6,654 bases of DNA. Origin: a virus. Of the stretch, positions 4,710-6,654 are shown one piece after another (the stretch's first letter is position 1; each line of letters starts with the position of its first letter). The stretch lies in IMG/VR virus record IMGVR_UViG_3300045018_000082; one strand, 5' to 3'. Below the pieces are notes generated by a model. It saw only the letters and a program-made list of their open reading frames with translations. It did not search any database and was not told the DNA's origin. A program made the translations under genes and the position numbers.

Positions 4710-4754
4710 GGAGTCCACGTCTTCTAATGGTGGACTCTAGTCCGATATTTCGGA
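4710..4754 (+). other. (+)-strand replication origin core, Ff-type pII nicking hairpin; predicted nick between T4725 and A4726
   Basis: GGAGTCCACGTCTTCTAATGGTGGACTCTAGTCCGA compares with recalled f1 GGAGTCCACGTTCTTTAATAGTGGACTCTTGTTCCA at 29/36 identical. The 8-bp stem is GAGTCCAC 4711-4718 / GTGGACTC 4730-4737. Downstream inverted repeats are GGAC-TCTA-GTCC and TCCGA-TATT-TCGGA (4741-4754). Confidence 0.75.
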
Positions 4755-4756
4755 AA

Positions 4757-4951
4757 TTATTCGTCTTTACCTAGCACTTCTTGTCTGTATCTTATGACTT
4801 CTTCTGCCTTTAAATCTTTTAAGTGATATTTGATAAGAGCGTGAATTACGTCACTTTCTGCCATCAGTGATTTTTTCTGTACGACGAATTTCATCAGTGT
4901 TTCTTTCACGTCTTCAACTTCTTCACTGCGTATTTTATAGACCTTGCTCAT
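4757..4951 (-). CDS. 64-aa divergent transcriptional repressor candidate, ribbon-helix-helix-like
   Basis: This is the only - strand gene. It diverges from rep across an operator-rich region, like rstR/rstA in CTXphi. AAGG lies about 10 nt upstream of the ATG. The pattern is a beta-strand (KVYKIR), helix (SEEVEDVKETLMKFV), turn, then helix (ESDVIHALIKYHL), resembling CopG/Arc RHH proteins by eye. Confidence 0.6.
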   Translation of the reverse strand: MSKVYKIRSEEVEDVKETLMKFVVQKKSLMAESDVIHALIKYHLKDLKAEEVIRYRQEVLGKDE

Positions 4952-4964
4952 TTGTAAACGCCTT

Positions 4965-5074
4965 GTAACTAAATAACTAGGTAACTTTTTTAATATTAAC
5001 TCGTTTTACGAGTTGACAAGTTACCTAGTAATTTTGTTTAATCTTTTAAACGCGGTTACTTGGTAACTTTTTTT
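4965..5074. promoter_or_regulatory. Divergent promoter/operator region between the repressor and rep genes
   Basis: Three copies of CT(A/T)GGTAACTT lie at 4977-4987 (+), 5018-5028 (inverted) and 5059-5069 (+), with starts exactly 41 bp apart. A nested palindrome AACTCGT-TTT-ACGAGTT is at 4998-5014. On the + strand there is a consensus -35 TTGACA (5013-5018) and TTTAAT (5037-5042, 18-nt spacer). On the - strand TTGTCA (5019-5014) overlaps it, followed by AT-rich -10 candidates at 4990-4998. Confidence 0.6.
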
Positions 5075-6295
5075 ATGTTAGATCATATTTGCATTAACGC
5101 TCCATTCGAATCGAGCTTTTTTTCAGTCGATTCTGAAGGGCGTTATTTTTTTGTAGATGTAGATCTGCATTCAATTGAAATACCACTTGCTTCGCGTTCA
5201 GTTCATAAGAATGACGATGGTTCTATTTCTGCTGCTGCTTTATTTCATCCGTATGAGTCAGTGCCAACGCACTACACAGGTATGGCAATGAAAGTGTTTT
5301 TCGATACAAGTTATGAGCCTTATGTTCAGATTAAGGCTTCGCCTGCAAAGCTTTTGCAAGGTCATAACGTATTTGGAAGTGACAACATAGAGCAGGGTGC
5401 AATGGAAATGATTGGCTTTCTACATGAAGCCTATCCAGTCTTAGCAAGAATGCTAGATTGGCCTCGTGCTTGGGTATCACATATCGATGTGACTTACTCT
5501 GCACGATTGAAAGACCAAAGCACGGCTAAAAAAGTTTTGGATTTCTTGAGTAATGTCAGTAATGGCCAGACTCGTTTAAGTAATAAGCGTTTCGATAGTT
5601 CAGTCTATTGGGGAGGTCAGACTTCACGCCTTGTAAATCACAAGTGTTATATGAAGCATGACGAATTTATTGCTCAATTTGAAGAGTATAAAATGCTTTC
5701 AAAGAAGAACGATAAATCAGCTCAACGTGTTGTTGATGTTATGTCTAATCAAGATTTGATCAACTGGACTATCGGTTTATTACGTTTTGAATCACGTTTA
5801 AAAAAACGTTGGCTCGAACGTAATGGAATTCCTACCAATCTCTTTGATTTAATTAAGTTTCAACGTTCTAACCCTAATTTACTTCAAACACTCTGGAACA
5901 AAGCTACTCATAGCATTTTTGAAGCCTTGCGAGGTCAAACTATGAAATTAACAGATGATACAAGTGTACTTGAAGCCATTGAACGCTCAGAAGTTGTAAT
6001 GACCAAATCGGGCAAGGTTTCTCACACTAAAGTACGTAATTTATTCGCAATGTTTTGTCTTATCCGTGAAAAAGGATTTGATGAGATTAAAAATAATTAC
6101 GGTAAGTCTCAGTTTTACAACCTAATTTCCCAATTGTGTGAATGTGGCTTTTCTAAAGCTTATTTACAGAACCTTCATGATGAGAAGGCATCAAACATCA
6201 TTCCATTCGTCAAGCTTGTAGAAATTGACTTCAATCAACAATTGCCAGATTGGTATGAAGAACCAGTCTCTCAATTTAATTATCAAATCGCTTAG
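5075..6295 (+). CDS. gII: Rolling-circle replication initiator, Ff gene II protein homolog (406 aa from ATG 5075)
   Basis: Motifs match my recollection of M13/f1 pII: HPYESVPTHYTGMAMKVF vs HPFESLPTHYSGIAFKIY; IKASPAKLLQGHNVFG vs IKASPAKVLQGHNVFG; HIDVTYSAR vs RIDATFSAR. NVSNGQT is shared. Further pairs are GLLRFESRLKKRWL vs GLVRFEARIKTRYL and PDWYEEPV vs PDWYNEPV. Length is 406 aa vs 410 aa. I prefer ATG 5075 (MLDHICINAPF vs MIDMLVLRLPF) over the track's TTG at 5060. Confidence 0.9.
   Translation: MLDHICINAPFESSFFSVDSEGRYFFVDVDLHSIEIPLASRSVHKNDDGSISAAALFHPYESVPTHYTGMAMKVFFDTSYEPYVQIKASPAKLLQGHNVFGSDNIEQGAMEMIGFLHEAYPVLARMLDWPRAWVSHIDVTYSARLKDQSTAKKVLDFLSNVSNGQTRLSNKRFDSSVYWGGQTSRLVNHKCYMKHDEFIAQFEEYKMLSKKNDKSAQRVVDVMSNQDLINWTIGLLRFESRLKKRWLERNGIPTNLFDLIKFQRSNPNLLQTLWNKATHSIFEALRGQTMKLTDDTSVLEAIERSEVVMTKSGKVSHTKVRNLFAMFCLIREKGFDEIKNNYGKSQFYNLISQLCECGFSKAYLQNLHDEKASNIIPFVKLVEIDFNQQLPDWYEEPVSQFNYQIA
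5942..6295 (+). CDS. gX: Nested in-frame gene X-like product (117 aa C-terminal part of the initiator)
   Basis: The internal ATG at 5942 is in frame with rep (5942-5075=867). GAGG at 5931-5934 lies 7 nt upstream. MKLTDDTSVLEAI aligns with the start of Ff pX, MNIYDDSAVLDAI, at the homologous position. Confidence 0.55.
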   Translation: MKLTDDTSVLEAIERSEVVMTKSGKVSHTKVRNLFAMFCLIREKGFDEIKNNYGKSQFYNLISQLCECGFSKAYLQNLHDEKASNIIPFVKLVEIDFNQQLPDWYEEPVSQFNYQIA

Positions 6296-6306
6296 AGGGC
6301 TACGAA

Positions 6307-6615
6307 ATGTCTCAGAAACAAACAGTTATTGTTACAGGTTTAAAAATGTCTAAGGGTGAATTTACACCTGAGAATGGCATGAATAAAGGCGTACCACAGC
6401 CTTATGATAATTTGAATATTTATGCATCAATTGCTTTTCCTGAAGGTGATATGGAATCGATTGGTGCTAAAGAACAACAATTTAAATTGAAAGGCTCAGG
6501 TAATTTTTATCGCTTTAAAGACGTACAACTACCAGCCGAATGTGAACTCGAGTTTGAGTTTGATTTTACTAAGACGCCACCAAGACCAGTTTTGAAGGAT
6601 ATTAACTTCATATAA
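6307..6615 (+). CDS. ssDNA-binding protein candidate (gene V position), 102 aa
   Basis: GAGGG at 6294-6298 lies 8 nt upstream. It is a small soluble protein immediately after rep, as in Ff gV and CTXphi rstB. I see no obvious similarity to Ff pV by eye, so the call rests on synteny and size only. Confidence 0.5.
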   Translation: MSQKQTVIVTGLKMSKGEFTPENGMNKGVPQPYDNLNIYASIAFPEGDMESIGAKEQQFKLKGSGNFYRFKDVQLPAECELEFEFDFTKTPPRPVLKDINFI

Positions 6616-6654
6616 AACAAAGTGTTAATAATAAAACACTTCGTATAATGTATA
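6528..6654. repeat. Terminal direct repeat, exact copy of 1-127
   Basis: Same comparison as above. Confidence 0.97.

What the first reader, a model, noticed from the sequence alone, without database searches (positions are those of the whole stretch)
4710..4754. Near-copy of the f1/M13 (+)-strand nicking hairpin, placing the origin against the 3' end of the repressor gene
GGAGTCCACGTCTTCTAATGGTGGACTCTAGTCCGA matches my recollection of the f1 origin core GGAGTCCACGTTCTTTAATAGTGGACTCTTGTTCCA at 29 of 36 positions. The match includes both stem arms (GAGTCCAC/GTGGACTC) and the loop T|AAT where Ff pII nicks (CTTT|AATAG). By analogy the nick falls between T4725 and A4726. The downstream inverted repeats (GGAC-TCTA-GTCC, TCCGA-TATT-TCGGA) sit where f1 has the pII-binding repeats. 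This agrees with the Ff-like pII encoded at 5075-6295. Such nucleotide conservation of a cis site in an otherwise divergent, low-GC, Zot/Xer-type phage is notable. The origin lies between the attP hairpin and the stop codon of the convergent repressor gene (4757), so any enhancer-like origin domain would overlap that gene.
Basis: partly seen in the sequence, partly recalled or inferred. Interest (0 to 1): 0.7.

Follow-up and report, generated by a model that had tools for sequence, protein, structure and literature searches.

The report
Ff-type rolling-circle origin in Acinetobacter phage
The flagged 45 bases are the start site for copying the DNA of a filamentous Acinetobacter virus. It is a real but expected relative of the classic M13/f1 origin, because the virus carries the same kind of replication protein and more than 100 related viruses have the same site.

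Summary
Window 4710-4745 matches real fd/f1/M13 origin sequence at 29 of 36 positions. This includes both stem arms and the T^AAT nick loop. About 1e-7 such matches are expected by chance per genome.

The window is a 6527-nt circular Acinetobacter inovirus, close to phage M02. Its Rep (5075-6295) is a full-length pII homologue. It is 36% identical to Ff pII, and the catalytic Tyr and the pX start Met are conserved.

A covariance model built from 12 pII-family phages finds one hit in the window, at 4708-4764 (E 1e-11). It also finds the same module in 49 of 76 sources from genomes and named phages (window included), and 80 matches in 80 viral contigs. The module is a nick hairpin with loop T-Y-T^A-A-T-R, then CTCT(T/A)GT, then a variable palindrome. 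Hits lie on the Rep strand, usually 300-650 nt upstream of rep. Both helices show compensatory changes.

The site is therefore the (+)-strand origin core, equivalent to f1 domain A. The predicted nick is T4725^A4726.

The conservation is family-wide, not special to this phage. There is no evidence for an f1-like enhancer. The neighbouring "repressor" is named only from its position and from another record's annotation.

Verdict: new member of a known kind, of modest interest.

The parts
4708..4764 (+). Core (+)-strand origin, equivalent to f1/M13 domain A (5769-5819)
   Evidence: It is the only hit of covariance model R1 in the window (54.6 bits, E 1.1e-11). It also forms an island of conservation, 4711-4755, among 62 relatives.
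4711..4737 (+). Nick hairpin (Ff hairpin D / 'A1 loop'). Arms are GAGTCCAC (4711-4718) and GTGGACTC (4730-4737). The 11-nt loop is GTCTTCTAATG.
   Evidence: The arms are identical to the fd and IKe arms. All 8 pairs show two-sided changes across relatives and 95% of cells are paired.
4725..4726 (+). Predicted Rep nick, T4725^A4726
   Evidence: These bases align with the Ff nick CTTT^AAT. T-Y-T-A-A-T is nearly invariant in 47 family members. The Erwinia phage PEar4 record is rearranged exactly at the equivalent TTT|AAT. This is inferred, not mapped.
4732..4743 (+). Dyad GGAC-TCTA-GTCC, in the position of the f1 GGAC-TCTT-GTTCC repeats inside the gIIp footprint
   Evidence: Alignment. CTCT(T/A)GT is nearly invariant.
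4741..4754 (+). Second origin hairpin/palindrome TCCGA-TATT-TCGGA (Ff hairpin E / 'A2 loop'), the presumed initiator-binding dyad
   Evidence: It sits at the same offset from the nick as the IKe stem-loop annotated 6582-6599. The arms differ between lineages but stay complementary: 5 of 6 pairs show two-sided changes.
5075..6295 (+). Rep, a pII-family rolling-circle initiator. The catalytic Tyr192 codon is at 5648-5650.
   Evidence: Pfam Phage_CRI (4.5e-49) and G2P_X_C (2.3e-14). It is 36-41% identical over 97-99% of its length to the pII or replication proteins of Ff, IKe, Pseudomonas 42-1/97-1 and Dulem virus 65. Y192 aligns with fd Y197.
5942..6295 (+). Probable in-frame pX-like product from internal Met290
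   Evidence: Met290 is invariant in 13 Rep sequences. In fd the X coding sequence starts at 496, which is codon 300 of gene II as I read it from the translation. That Met290 aligns with fd Met300 is inferred from the 5-residue offset at both flanking invariant columns (window E239 = fd E245, and the 406-aa versus 410-aa ends); it was not checked column by column. GAGG lies 7 nt upstream.
4757..4951 (-). 64-aa ORF divergent from rep. Its stop codon touches the origin core. It is a putative regulator, called 'repressor' only from its position and from another record's annotation.
   Evidence: It falls in phrog_5219, unknown function. It is 44% identical to the protein annotated 'repressor' in Pseudomonas phage 97-1, which abuts that phage's origin hairpin in the same way.
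4596..4697 (+). Forked attP hairpin made of two inverted dif-like sites, ending 13 nt before the nick hairpin
   Evidence: DNA fold z-score -9.3. Inverted repeats I5 and I6. The arm TTCGCATAA-TGCAGA-TTGATGTTA is conserved next to the origin in Acinetobacter relatives.
4967..5069 (.). Operator-like inverted repeats (ACTAGGTAACTT / AAGTTACCTAGT, GGTTACTTGGTAACTT) between the small ORF and rep. This is not the origin.
   Evidence: I2, I3. The origin model has no hit here.

Best explanation
Window 4708-4764 is the core (+)-strand origin of rolling-circle replication of this Acinetobacter filamentous phage. It is homologous to domain A of the f1/M13/fd origin.

The proposed mechanism follows Ff. 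Rep (5075-6295) binds the dyad repeats at 4732-4754 on supercoiled replicative-form DNA. It distorts the nick hairpin at 4711-4737 and cuts the + strand between T4725 and A4726. Tyr192 becomes linked to the 5' end. The 3'-OH primes host polymerase. After one round the regenerated site is cut and the displaced strand is ligated into a circle.

Shown here: sequence homology, family-wide conservation, covariation, cognate initiator, strand and position. Inferred: the exact nick, Rep binding to the dyads, and the dual role in initiation and termination.
For: - Match to real fd origin: 29/36, with about 1e-7 expected by chance per genome.
- A search of the phage database with window 4690-4800 found only M02 and one 32-nt match, in 31 Ff-group records at their origin and in three unannotated records under other names.
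- The fd and IKe GenBank records annotate the aligned positions as the viral-strand origin.
- Rep is a full-length pII homologue with the catalytic Tyr conserved (PMC5405960).
- Model R1 gives a single window hit. It also hits 49 of 76 sources at E<0.01 (genome contigs and named phages; the window is one of them), and gives 80 matches in 80 viral contigs. These lie on the Rep-coding strand with one exception (L167, minus strand). Most lie 300-650 nt upstream of rep; some loci also carry a second copy downstream of rep.
- Covariation: 93% of cells are paired and 13 of 14 pairs show two-sided changes. No shuffle of 500 reached the observed value on four of the five measures (1 of 500 on the fifth). 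Slid registers pair at only 28-48%. An alignment not fitted to the structure gives 91% paired.
- The loop T-Y-T-A-A-T-R and the downstream CTCT(T/A)GT are nearly invariant.
- A conservation island at 4711-4755 has poorly conserved flanks.
- A 2041-nt tandem unit in L099 retains only window 4599 through the circle junction to 124. This places the origin within that module.
Against: - No experimental data exist for this phage or for any Acinetobacter inovirus. Two papers on these phages do not mention an origin.
- Palindrome covariation is equally expected for a dimeric protein-binding site and for an extruded hairpin, so it does not separate those two sub-mechanisms.
- Positions -5, -4, -2 and +4 around the nick differ from Ff; all but -5 lie within the gIIp recognition sequence, which starts at -4.
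- No f1-like enhancer (domain B) or IHF site was found.
- Twenty-seven of the 76 searched sources gave no hit at E<0.01. Some are truncated upstream and some are more divergent.
- The consensus scan also flags 4741-4754 as weakly terminator-like.
Confidence: 0.87

Rival explanations
1. The two hairpins are transcription terminators or RNA-level elements. They would end the + strand late operon, or act on the minus-strand small-ORF transcript, and would not be a replication origin.
For: The consensus scan lists 4741-4754 as terminator-like on the + strand.
Against: The nick hairpin has an 11-nt loop and no T-run on either strand. A much better terminator lies upstream at about 4631-4670, with the GC-rich stem GCCCCAGTGAGA/TCTCACGGGGC followed by TTTTT. 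A terminator would not need invariant loop bases T-Y-T-A-A-T-R or the invariant CTCT(T/A)GT linker. The homology is to a site where nicking by pII was shown biochemically. No Rfam family matches here.
Confidence: 0.04
2. The site is origin-derived but works only as a termination or resolution signal, or is a relic. Initiation would occur elsewhere, for example in the repeat-rich region 4952-5074.
For: In Ff, initiation and termination have partly separable sequence requirements. A truncated second origin can act only as a terminator. Some relatives carry a second origin copy downstream of rep.
Against: The model has one hit in the window, so there is no other pII-type origin. The complete module is present: nick loop, linker and dyad. 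Region 4952-5074 has no similarity to any family origin and looks like operators and promoters. In the relatives examined with extra copies (L099, L116, L117, L158), these belong to tandemly repeated replication modules or partial units, not to a divided origin.
Confidence: 0.05
3. The resemblance to f1 is contamination with a cloning vector's f1 origin, or a chance match.
For: f1 origin sequence is widespread in databases. Three non-Ff records, named lambda, Listeria and ECO95, carry the same match and may be vector-derived.
Against: The seven differences from Ff are shared with independent Acinetobacter, Psychrobacter and Moraxellaceae sequences. The flanks are phage-specific. The chance expectation is about 1e-7.
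Confidence: 0.01

Closest known systems
f1/M13/fd (+)-strand origin, domain A (core origin, M13 5769-5819), nicked by gene II protein at T5780^A5781
   Same: - 29/36 identity over the nick hairpin and linker, with identical 8-bp stem arms.
- The same T^AAT nick context.
- The same two-hairpin layout at the same spacing.
- A cognate initiator 36% identical, with the catalytic Tyr and the pX start conserved.
- Located upstream of the initiator gene on the coding (+) strand.

   Different: - The loop differs at -5, -4, -2 and +4.
- The second palindrome has different arms (TCCGA/TCGGA against GTTCCA/TGGAAC) and a 4-nt rather than 3-nt spacer.
- No recognisable domain B enhancer or IHF site. That space is occupied by a minus-strand ORF.
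- The site is flanked upstream by a Xer attP hairpin rather than by the Ff minus-strand origin hairpins.

IKe (Lineavirus) viral-strand origin stem-loops, X02139 6554-6580 and 6582-6599
   Same: The same module, with identical stem arms GAGTCCAC/GTGGACTC and the linker CTCTTGT. Both hairpins are annotated as the viral-strand origin.
   Different: 25/36 identity to the window. The palindrome arms are GTTGCA/TGCAAC. IKe is a non-integrating phage that encodes a pIV secretin.
Unannotated origins of temperate Zot-type pII phages (Pseudomonas phages 42-1, 97-1, NEU2023; Dulem viruses 52/57/62/65; prophages of Moraxella, Psychrobacter, Haemophilus, Pseudoalteromonas and others)
   Same: The same origin module upstream of rep. 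In 42-1 and 97-1 it also abuts the 3' end of a minus-strand 'repressor' gene. In the case of 97-1 that gene is homologous to the window's ORF.
   Different: Stem and palindrome sequences are lineage-specific, with compensatory changes such as GAGTGGAC/GTCCACTC and GGCACAC/GTGTGCC. None of these origins is annotated in the records I examined.
CTXphi ori(+) with RstA, and the RS1/RS2 modules
   Same: The lifestyle context is shared: a single-stranded hairpin attP used by XerCD, a repressor-rep divergent pair, an origin close to attP, and tandem arrays or a satellite-like replication module.
   Different: The CTXphi origin is 167 bp with several hairpins. It is nicked between G and T in a loop and needs HU. 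It shows no sequence similarity to this site. My recollection, not tested here, is that RstA belongs to a different initiator family from pII.

Membership tests
pII (Phage_CRI/G2P) type filamentous-phage (+)-strand origin core | Nick-site sequence (Ff CTTT^AATAG) in the loop of a short hairpin on the viral strand | tested here: met
   The loop GTCTTCT^AATG lies between perfect 8-bp arms. T-Y-T-A-A-T-R is nearly invariant in 47 relatives.
pII (Phage_CRI/G2P) type filamentous-phage (+)-strand origin core | Initiator-binding dyad repeats immediately 3' of the nick hairpin, within the gIIp footprint (M13 5774-5813) | tested here: met
   GGAC-TCTA-GTCC and TCCGA-TATT-TCGGA fall at the aligned positions 4732-4754. 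The dyad symmetry is kept through compensatory changes across the family. Binding itself was not tested.
pII (Phage_CRI/G2P) type filamentous-phage (+)-strand origin core | Cognate pII-family initiator encoded in cis, with the catalytic tyrosine | tested here: met
   Pfam Phage_CRI and G2P_X_C. 36% identity over 98% coverage to Ff pII. Y192 aligns with Y197 and is invariant in 13 sequences.
pII (Phage_CRI/G2P) type filamentous-phage (+)-strand origin core | Non-coding position upstream of the initiator gene, in the orientation of the coding (+) strand | tested here: met
   The site is 367 nt upstream of rep on the + strand. Of the 129 family matches at E<0.01, all but one (L167, minus strand) are on the Rep strand. 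Most lie 300-650 nt upstream; some loci carry a further copy downstream of rep.
pII (Phage_CRI/G2P) type filamentous-phage (+)-strand origin core | Rep-dependent nicking of supercoiled DNA at the site, and its function in initiation and termination | not testable with these tools
   This needs nick mapping and origin-cloning experiments.
Complete Ff-type origin (domain A plus domain B enhancer) | A roughly 100-nt AT-rich enhancer with IHF sites 3' of the core | tested here: not met
   The equivalent stretch 4765-4855 lies inside the minus-strand ORF. It has no WATCARNNNNTTR match and only 0.38-0.56 identity among relatives. Domain B is dispensable even in Ff when pII is altered or overproduced. 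Failing this test therefore does not affect membership of the core-origin family.
CTXphi-type ori(+) (RstA-dependent) | RstA-family initiator and a multi-hairpin 167-bp origin nicked at G^T | tested here: not met
   The initiator here is pII-family and the origin matches Ff, not the description. Only the integration module is CTX-like.

The most novel reading that the evidence does not exclude
The origin may be part of a self-contained 2-kb replication cassette: attP hairpin, origin, small regulator, rep/pX and ORF102. The cassette is bounded by Xer sites, namely the attP arm at 4598-4630 and the dif-like site at 110-137. It may exist on its own as an RS1-like satellite in tandem arrays. On this reading the 13-nt spacing between attP and the nick hairpin is selected, so that rolling-circle synthesis running from one integrated copy to the next rebuilds the attP hairpin as the last segment displaced. 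That would couple Rep nicking to Xer-mediated integration and prophage rescue. It would be a pII-family counterpart of the CTXphi RS1/RS2 system, evolved with an unrelated initiator.
Probability: 0.3. Interest if true: 0.5.

Novelty: new member of a known kind. Interest (0 to 1): 0.3.

Why it matters
The result gives Acinetobacter filamentous phages, a recently described group linked to biofilm and virulence phenotypes, a precisely placed and testable replication origin and nick site. Neither of the two papers on these phages that I read mentions one.

It also shows that the Ff origin core is a family-wide signature of pII-type inoviruses across Gammaproteobacteria. The signature can be captured in a small covariance model and used to annotate origins in inovirus genomes and prophages.

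In practice the origin and Rep could seed phagemid or single-stranded DNA production tools for Acinetobacter. Conceptually the result is expected, since homologous initiators tend to keep homologous origins.

Tried and rejected
- **Rfam scan of the whole window at E<=1.** Nothing was found at the site. The only hit was a spurious snoRNA match inside rep.
- **Full-text search for the origin sequence strings.** It returned only vector and primer listings, and no comparative origin study.
- **The two Acinetobacter filamentous-phage papers.** Neither mentions an origin, an intergenic region or attP.
- **Testing whether the small ORF is a repressor.**
  - Pfam: nothing above the curated cutoff (one sub-threshold match, MRP-S27, 16.4 bits against a cutoff of 25.9).
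  - PHROGs: a family of unknown function.
  - 128 database homologues: none carries a regulator name, and nearly all named ones are 'hypothetical'.
  - PDB profile search: nothing significant.
  - AlphaFold model: only pLDDT 63, three helices. I judged it too weak for a fold search, so I did not run one.
  - No similarity to the equally sized ORF of Dulem virus 65.
- **Search for an f1-like enhancer.** There is no IHF consensus at 4700-4960 and no conservation beyond about 4755.
- **Alternative origin at 4952-5074.** Rejected, because the origin model has no hit there and the region contains operator-like repeats.
- **Vector contamination.** Rejected, because the differences from Ff are shared with independent relatives.
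- **Erwinia phage PEar6, and Dulem viruses 60 and 63.** They gave no convincing origin hit even with filters off. Aeromonas MBa-2020a gave only a weak model hit, but it has a plausible divergent hairpin, AAGCCAC-GAACTCTAAACT-GTGGCTT, on the Rep strand.

Full report
**What the window is**

The 6654-base window is a circle of 6527 nt with a 127-nt terminal overlap. Its closest named relative is Acinetobacter phage M02: 94% nucleotide identity over the alignable third and 99.3% for Rep.

It has the gene set of a temperate, Zot-type inovirus:
- a small coat-like protein;
- a large glycine- and threonine-rich adsorption protein;
- a DUF2523 protein;
- a Zot ATPase;
- a small minus-strand ORF (4757-4951);
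- Rep (5075-6295);
- a 102-aa ORF (6307-6615).

No ORF matched a pIV-type secretin family. Between zot and the small ORF lies a 100-nt forked hairpin made of two inverted dif-like sites (4596-4697, DNA-fold z-score -9.3). This is the architecture of a CTXphi-type single-stranded attP.

**Checking the observation**

Window 4710-4745 and fd 5766-5801 are identical at 29 of 36 ungapped positions. These include both 8-bp stem arms (GAGTCCAC/GTGGACTC) and the TAAT of the loop.

I searched 2.3 Gb of phage records with window 4690-4800. The search returned:
- phage M02;
- 31 Ff-group records, matched at their origin, which fd annotates as 'origin of viral strand synthesis' at 5782;
- three unannotated records under other names, carrying the same 32-nt match.

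The match is far beyond chance. The binomial expectation is about 1e-7 per genome, and the best match in 200 shuffles was 24 of 36.

Published nick positions are T5780^A5781 in M13 and TTCTTT^AATA. These place the equivalent cut between T4725 and A4726.

**The initiator**

Rep carries both Pfam domains of gene II protein. It aligns over 98% of its length with Ff pII at 36% identity. It also aligns with IKe pII (37%), Pseudomonas phages 42-1 and 97-1 (40%) and Dulem virus 65 (41%).

Tyr192 aligns with Ff Tyr197, the residue that becomes covalently linked to the nicked 5' end. It is invariant in 13 sequences. Met290 is also invariant. From the flanking alignment columns I infer that it corresponds to Met300, the Ff pX start. 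It is preceded by GAGG, so a pX-like product is likely.

**The site is family-wide**

Scanning 17 named relatives with the 36-mer found the same element upstream of rep in IKe, five Pseudomonas phages, phage blackswan219-1, an oral inovirus and four Dulem viruses.

I built a 57-position covariance model from 12 of these. Its results were:
- one hit in the window, at 4708-4764 (E 1.1e-11);
- hits at E<0.01 in 49 of 76 sources, counting the window, genome contigs that encode a Rep relative, and named phages;
- 80 matches in the 80 viral contigs searched.

The hits lie on the Rep-coding strand, with one exception in a viral contig. Most are 300-650 nt upstream of rep. Hosts span Acinetobacter, Psychrobacter, Moraxella, Pseudomonas, Haemophilus, Glaesserella, Xenorhabdus, Arsenophonus, Pseudoalteromonas and others.

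The nearly invariant positions are:
- the loop T-Y-T-A-A-T-R;
- the first GT of the 3' arm;
- the linker CTCT(T/A)GT.

The stems, in contrast, vary with compensation. Examples are GAGTCCAC/GTGGACTC, GAGTGGAC/GTCCACTC, GGCACAC/GTGTGCC and GTGTACAC/GTGTAC. The second palindrome takes at least eight different arm sequences while keeping its dyad symmetry.

On 56 distinct sequences, 93% of cells pair and 13 of 14 pairs show two-sided changes. No shuffle of 500 reached the observed value on four of the five measures, and 1 of 500 did on the fifth. Shifted registers pair at only 28-48%. The MAFFT seed alignment, which was not fitted to the structure, gives 91% paired.

Among 62 sequences sharing the window's stem, conservation peaks at 4711-4755 and falls to 0.4-0.5 on both sides.

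**Mechanism**

The best explanation is that 4708-4764 is the counterpart of Ff domain A. In M13, domain A runs 5769-5819. The gIIp footprint 5774-5813 maps to window 4719-4758.

By homology, the steps are:
1. Rep binds the dyads on supercoiled replicative form.
2. It nicks T4725^A4726 and attaches through Tyr192.
3. The 3'-OH primes rolling-circle synthesis.
4. The regenerated site is cleaved and the displaced strand is joined into a circle.

The homology, conservation, covariation, strand, position and cognate enzyme are shown here. The nick position, the binding and the dual role in initiation and termination are inferred.

Two side observations fit the model.
- The tandem 2041-nt unit in contig L099 keeps only window 4599 through the circle junction to 124. 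The origin therefore lies in that module.
- The Erwinia phage PEar4 record is rearranged with breakpoints exactly at TTT|AAT of its IKe-like origin.

The conservation is not peculiar to this phage. IKe (31/36), Dulem virus 57 (29/36) and the Pseudomonas phages (27/36) are comparably close to fd. A 36%-identical initiator keeping a recognisable origin is what one would expect.

The 'repressor' is unproven:
- its PHROG family has no assigned function;
- none of its 128 database homologues carries a regulator name, and nearly all named ones are 'hypothetical';
- the profile search of the PDB found nothing;
- the structure model is low confidence.

Its claim rests on three things. It is oriented divergently from rep. 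Operator-like inverted repeats lie at 4967-5069. It is 44% identical to a protein annotated as 'repressor' in Pseudomonas phage 97-1, where the origin also abuts the gene's 3' end.

An enhancer overlapping that gene is not supported. There is no IHF consensus and no nucleotide conservation beyond about 4755. In Ff, domain B is dispensable when pII is altered or more abundant.

**Rival explanations**

- **Terminator.** This reading is weak. The nick hairpin has no T-run, a much better terminator sits inside the attP loop, and a terminator would not need invariant loop bases.
- **Origin elsewhere, e.g. 4952-5074.** Nothing supports this.
- **Vector contamination or chance.** Both are excluded.

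**Comparison and novelty**

The element meets every sequence-level criterion of a pII-type core origin. Only biochemical nicking could not be tested. It is not a CTXphi-type origin, which is 167 bp long, nicked at G^T and HU-dependent, even though the integration module is CTX-like.

The phage therefore combines an Ff-type replication module with a CTX-type integration module. This looks like modular reassortment, not a new mechanism.

I found no publication describing the origin of Acinetobacter inoviruses, nor the family-wide motif beyond Ff and IKe. The library does not hold most subscription literature, however.

**Verdict**

This is a new member of a known kind. The finding is correct and useful for annotation and for tool-building, but not surprising. 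Interest 0.3.

Noticed in passing
window 110-137 (repeated in part at 6637-6654) and 4598-4630; locus L099 395-4574: A third dif-like site, ACTTCGTATAA-TGTATA-ATATGTTAAAA, follows ORF102. Viral contig L099 (Rep 100% identical) is a tandem array of a 2041-nt unit equal to window 4599 through 124, that is attP, origin, small ORF, rep and ORF102. The units are joined at a hybrid of this site and the attP arm. This looks like an RS1-like satellite or excisable replication cassette.
   Followed up: partly
window 1-127 = 6528-6654: An exact 127-nt terminal overlap makes the true circle 6527 nt. The contig end coincides, within 3 nt, with the junction of the 2-kb cassette. This suggests an assembly-graph branch between full-length and cassette forms in the source sample.
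   Followed up: partly
window 4596-4697: Forked hairpin of two inverted dif-like sites. One arm has a 6-nt spacer (TTCGCATAA-TGCAGA-TTGATGTTA on the minus strand). The other has a 13-nt spacer that forms a bulge. The loop contains a GC-rich stem followed by TTTTT, a likely terminator of the + strand operon. This is a CTXphi-style single-stranded attP. The 6-nt-spacer arm is conserved next to the origin in Acinetobacter relatives.
   Followed up: partly
loci L027-L029 (Moraxella osloensis), L036/L037 (A. bouvetii), L040/L041, L043/L044, L066/L067, L057/L058: Rep matches recur at phage-length spacings of 6.7-8.5 kb on the same chromosome or contig. This indicates tandem prophage arrays, as CTXphi needs for virion production from the integrated state.
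   Followed up: no
loci L116, L117, L158, L107 (viral contigs): A second origin copy lies about 560 nt downstream of rep. In L116, L117 and L158 it is sometimes paired with a different replication module. This points to mosaic tandem arrangements of replication cassettes.
   Followed up: partly
window 5942-6295: An in-frame internal start at Met290 of Rep is preceded by GAGG 7 nt upstream. The Met is invariant across 13 pII homologues and, from the flanking alignment columns, corresponds to the Ff pX start. A pX-like protein is probably made.
   Followed up: partly
window 4967-5069: Long inverted repeats and direct GGTAACTT motifs lie between the divergent small ORF and rep (AACTAAATAACTAGGTAACTT / AAGTTACCTAGTAATTTTGTT, 90% complementary). 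These are candidate operators of a rep/regulator switch.
   Followed up: no
window 4100-4250: Nested perfect 9-bp inverted repeats (AAAGTGTCT/AGACACTTT and TTGAGACAC/GTGTCTCAA) lie just after zot. They are candidates for the minus-strand origin or the packaging signal.
   Followed up: no
L006 (Erwinia phage PEar6, MT901800) and L179 (PEar4, MT901799 6100-6801): The PEar6 record lacks the 283 nt corresponding to IKe 6471-6753, which include the whole (+) origin. PEar4 has the origin split exactly at the nick (…TGAGTCCACTATGTTT | and | TAATAGTGGACTCTTGTTGCATTTTGCAAC…), with the two halves permuted. This is either a pII-mediated rearrangement or an assembly artefact at the nick.
   Followed up: partly
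one search hits H30-H32 (OR474059 'Lambdavirus lambda', OR845556, OR848931): Three non-inovirus phage records contain the f1 origin core. They have no annotation and are most likely vector-derived sequence in the deposited records.
   Followed up: no
window 6307-6615: The 102-aa ORF after rep sits where Ff has gene V. It matches only phrog_4994 (unknown function), with a faint hit to an 'RstB' family. It has no Pfam match, so its role as a single-stranded DNA-binding protein is only positional.
   Followed up: no
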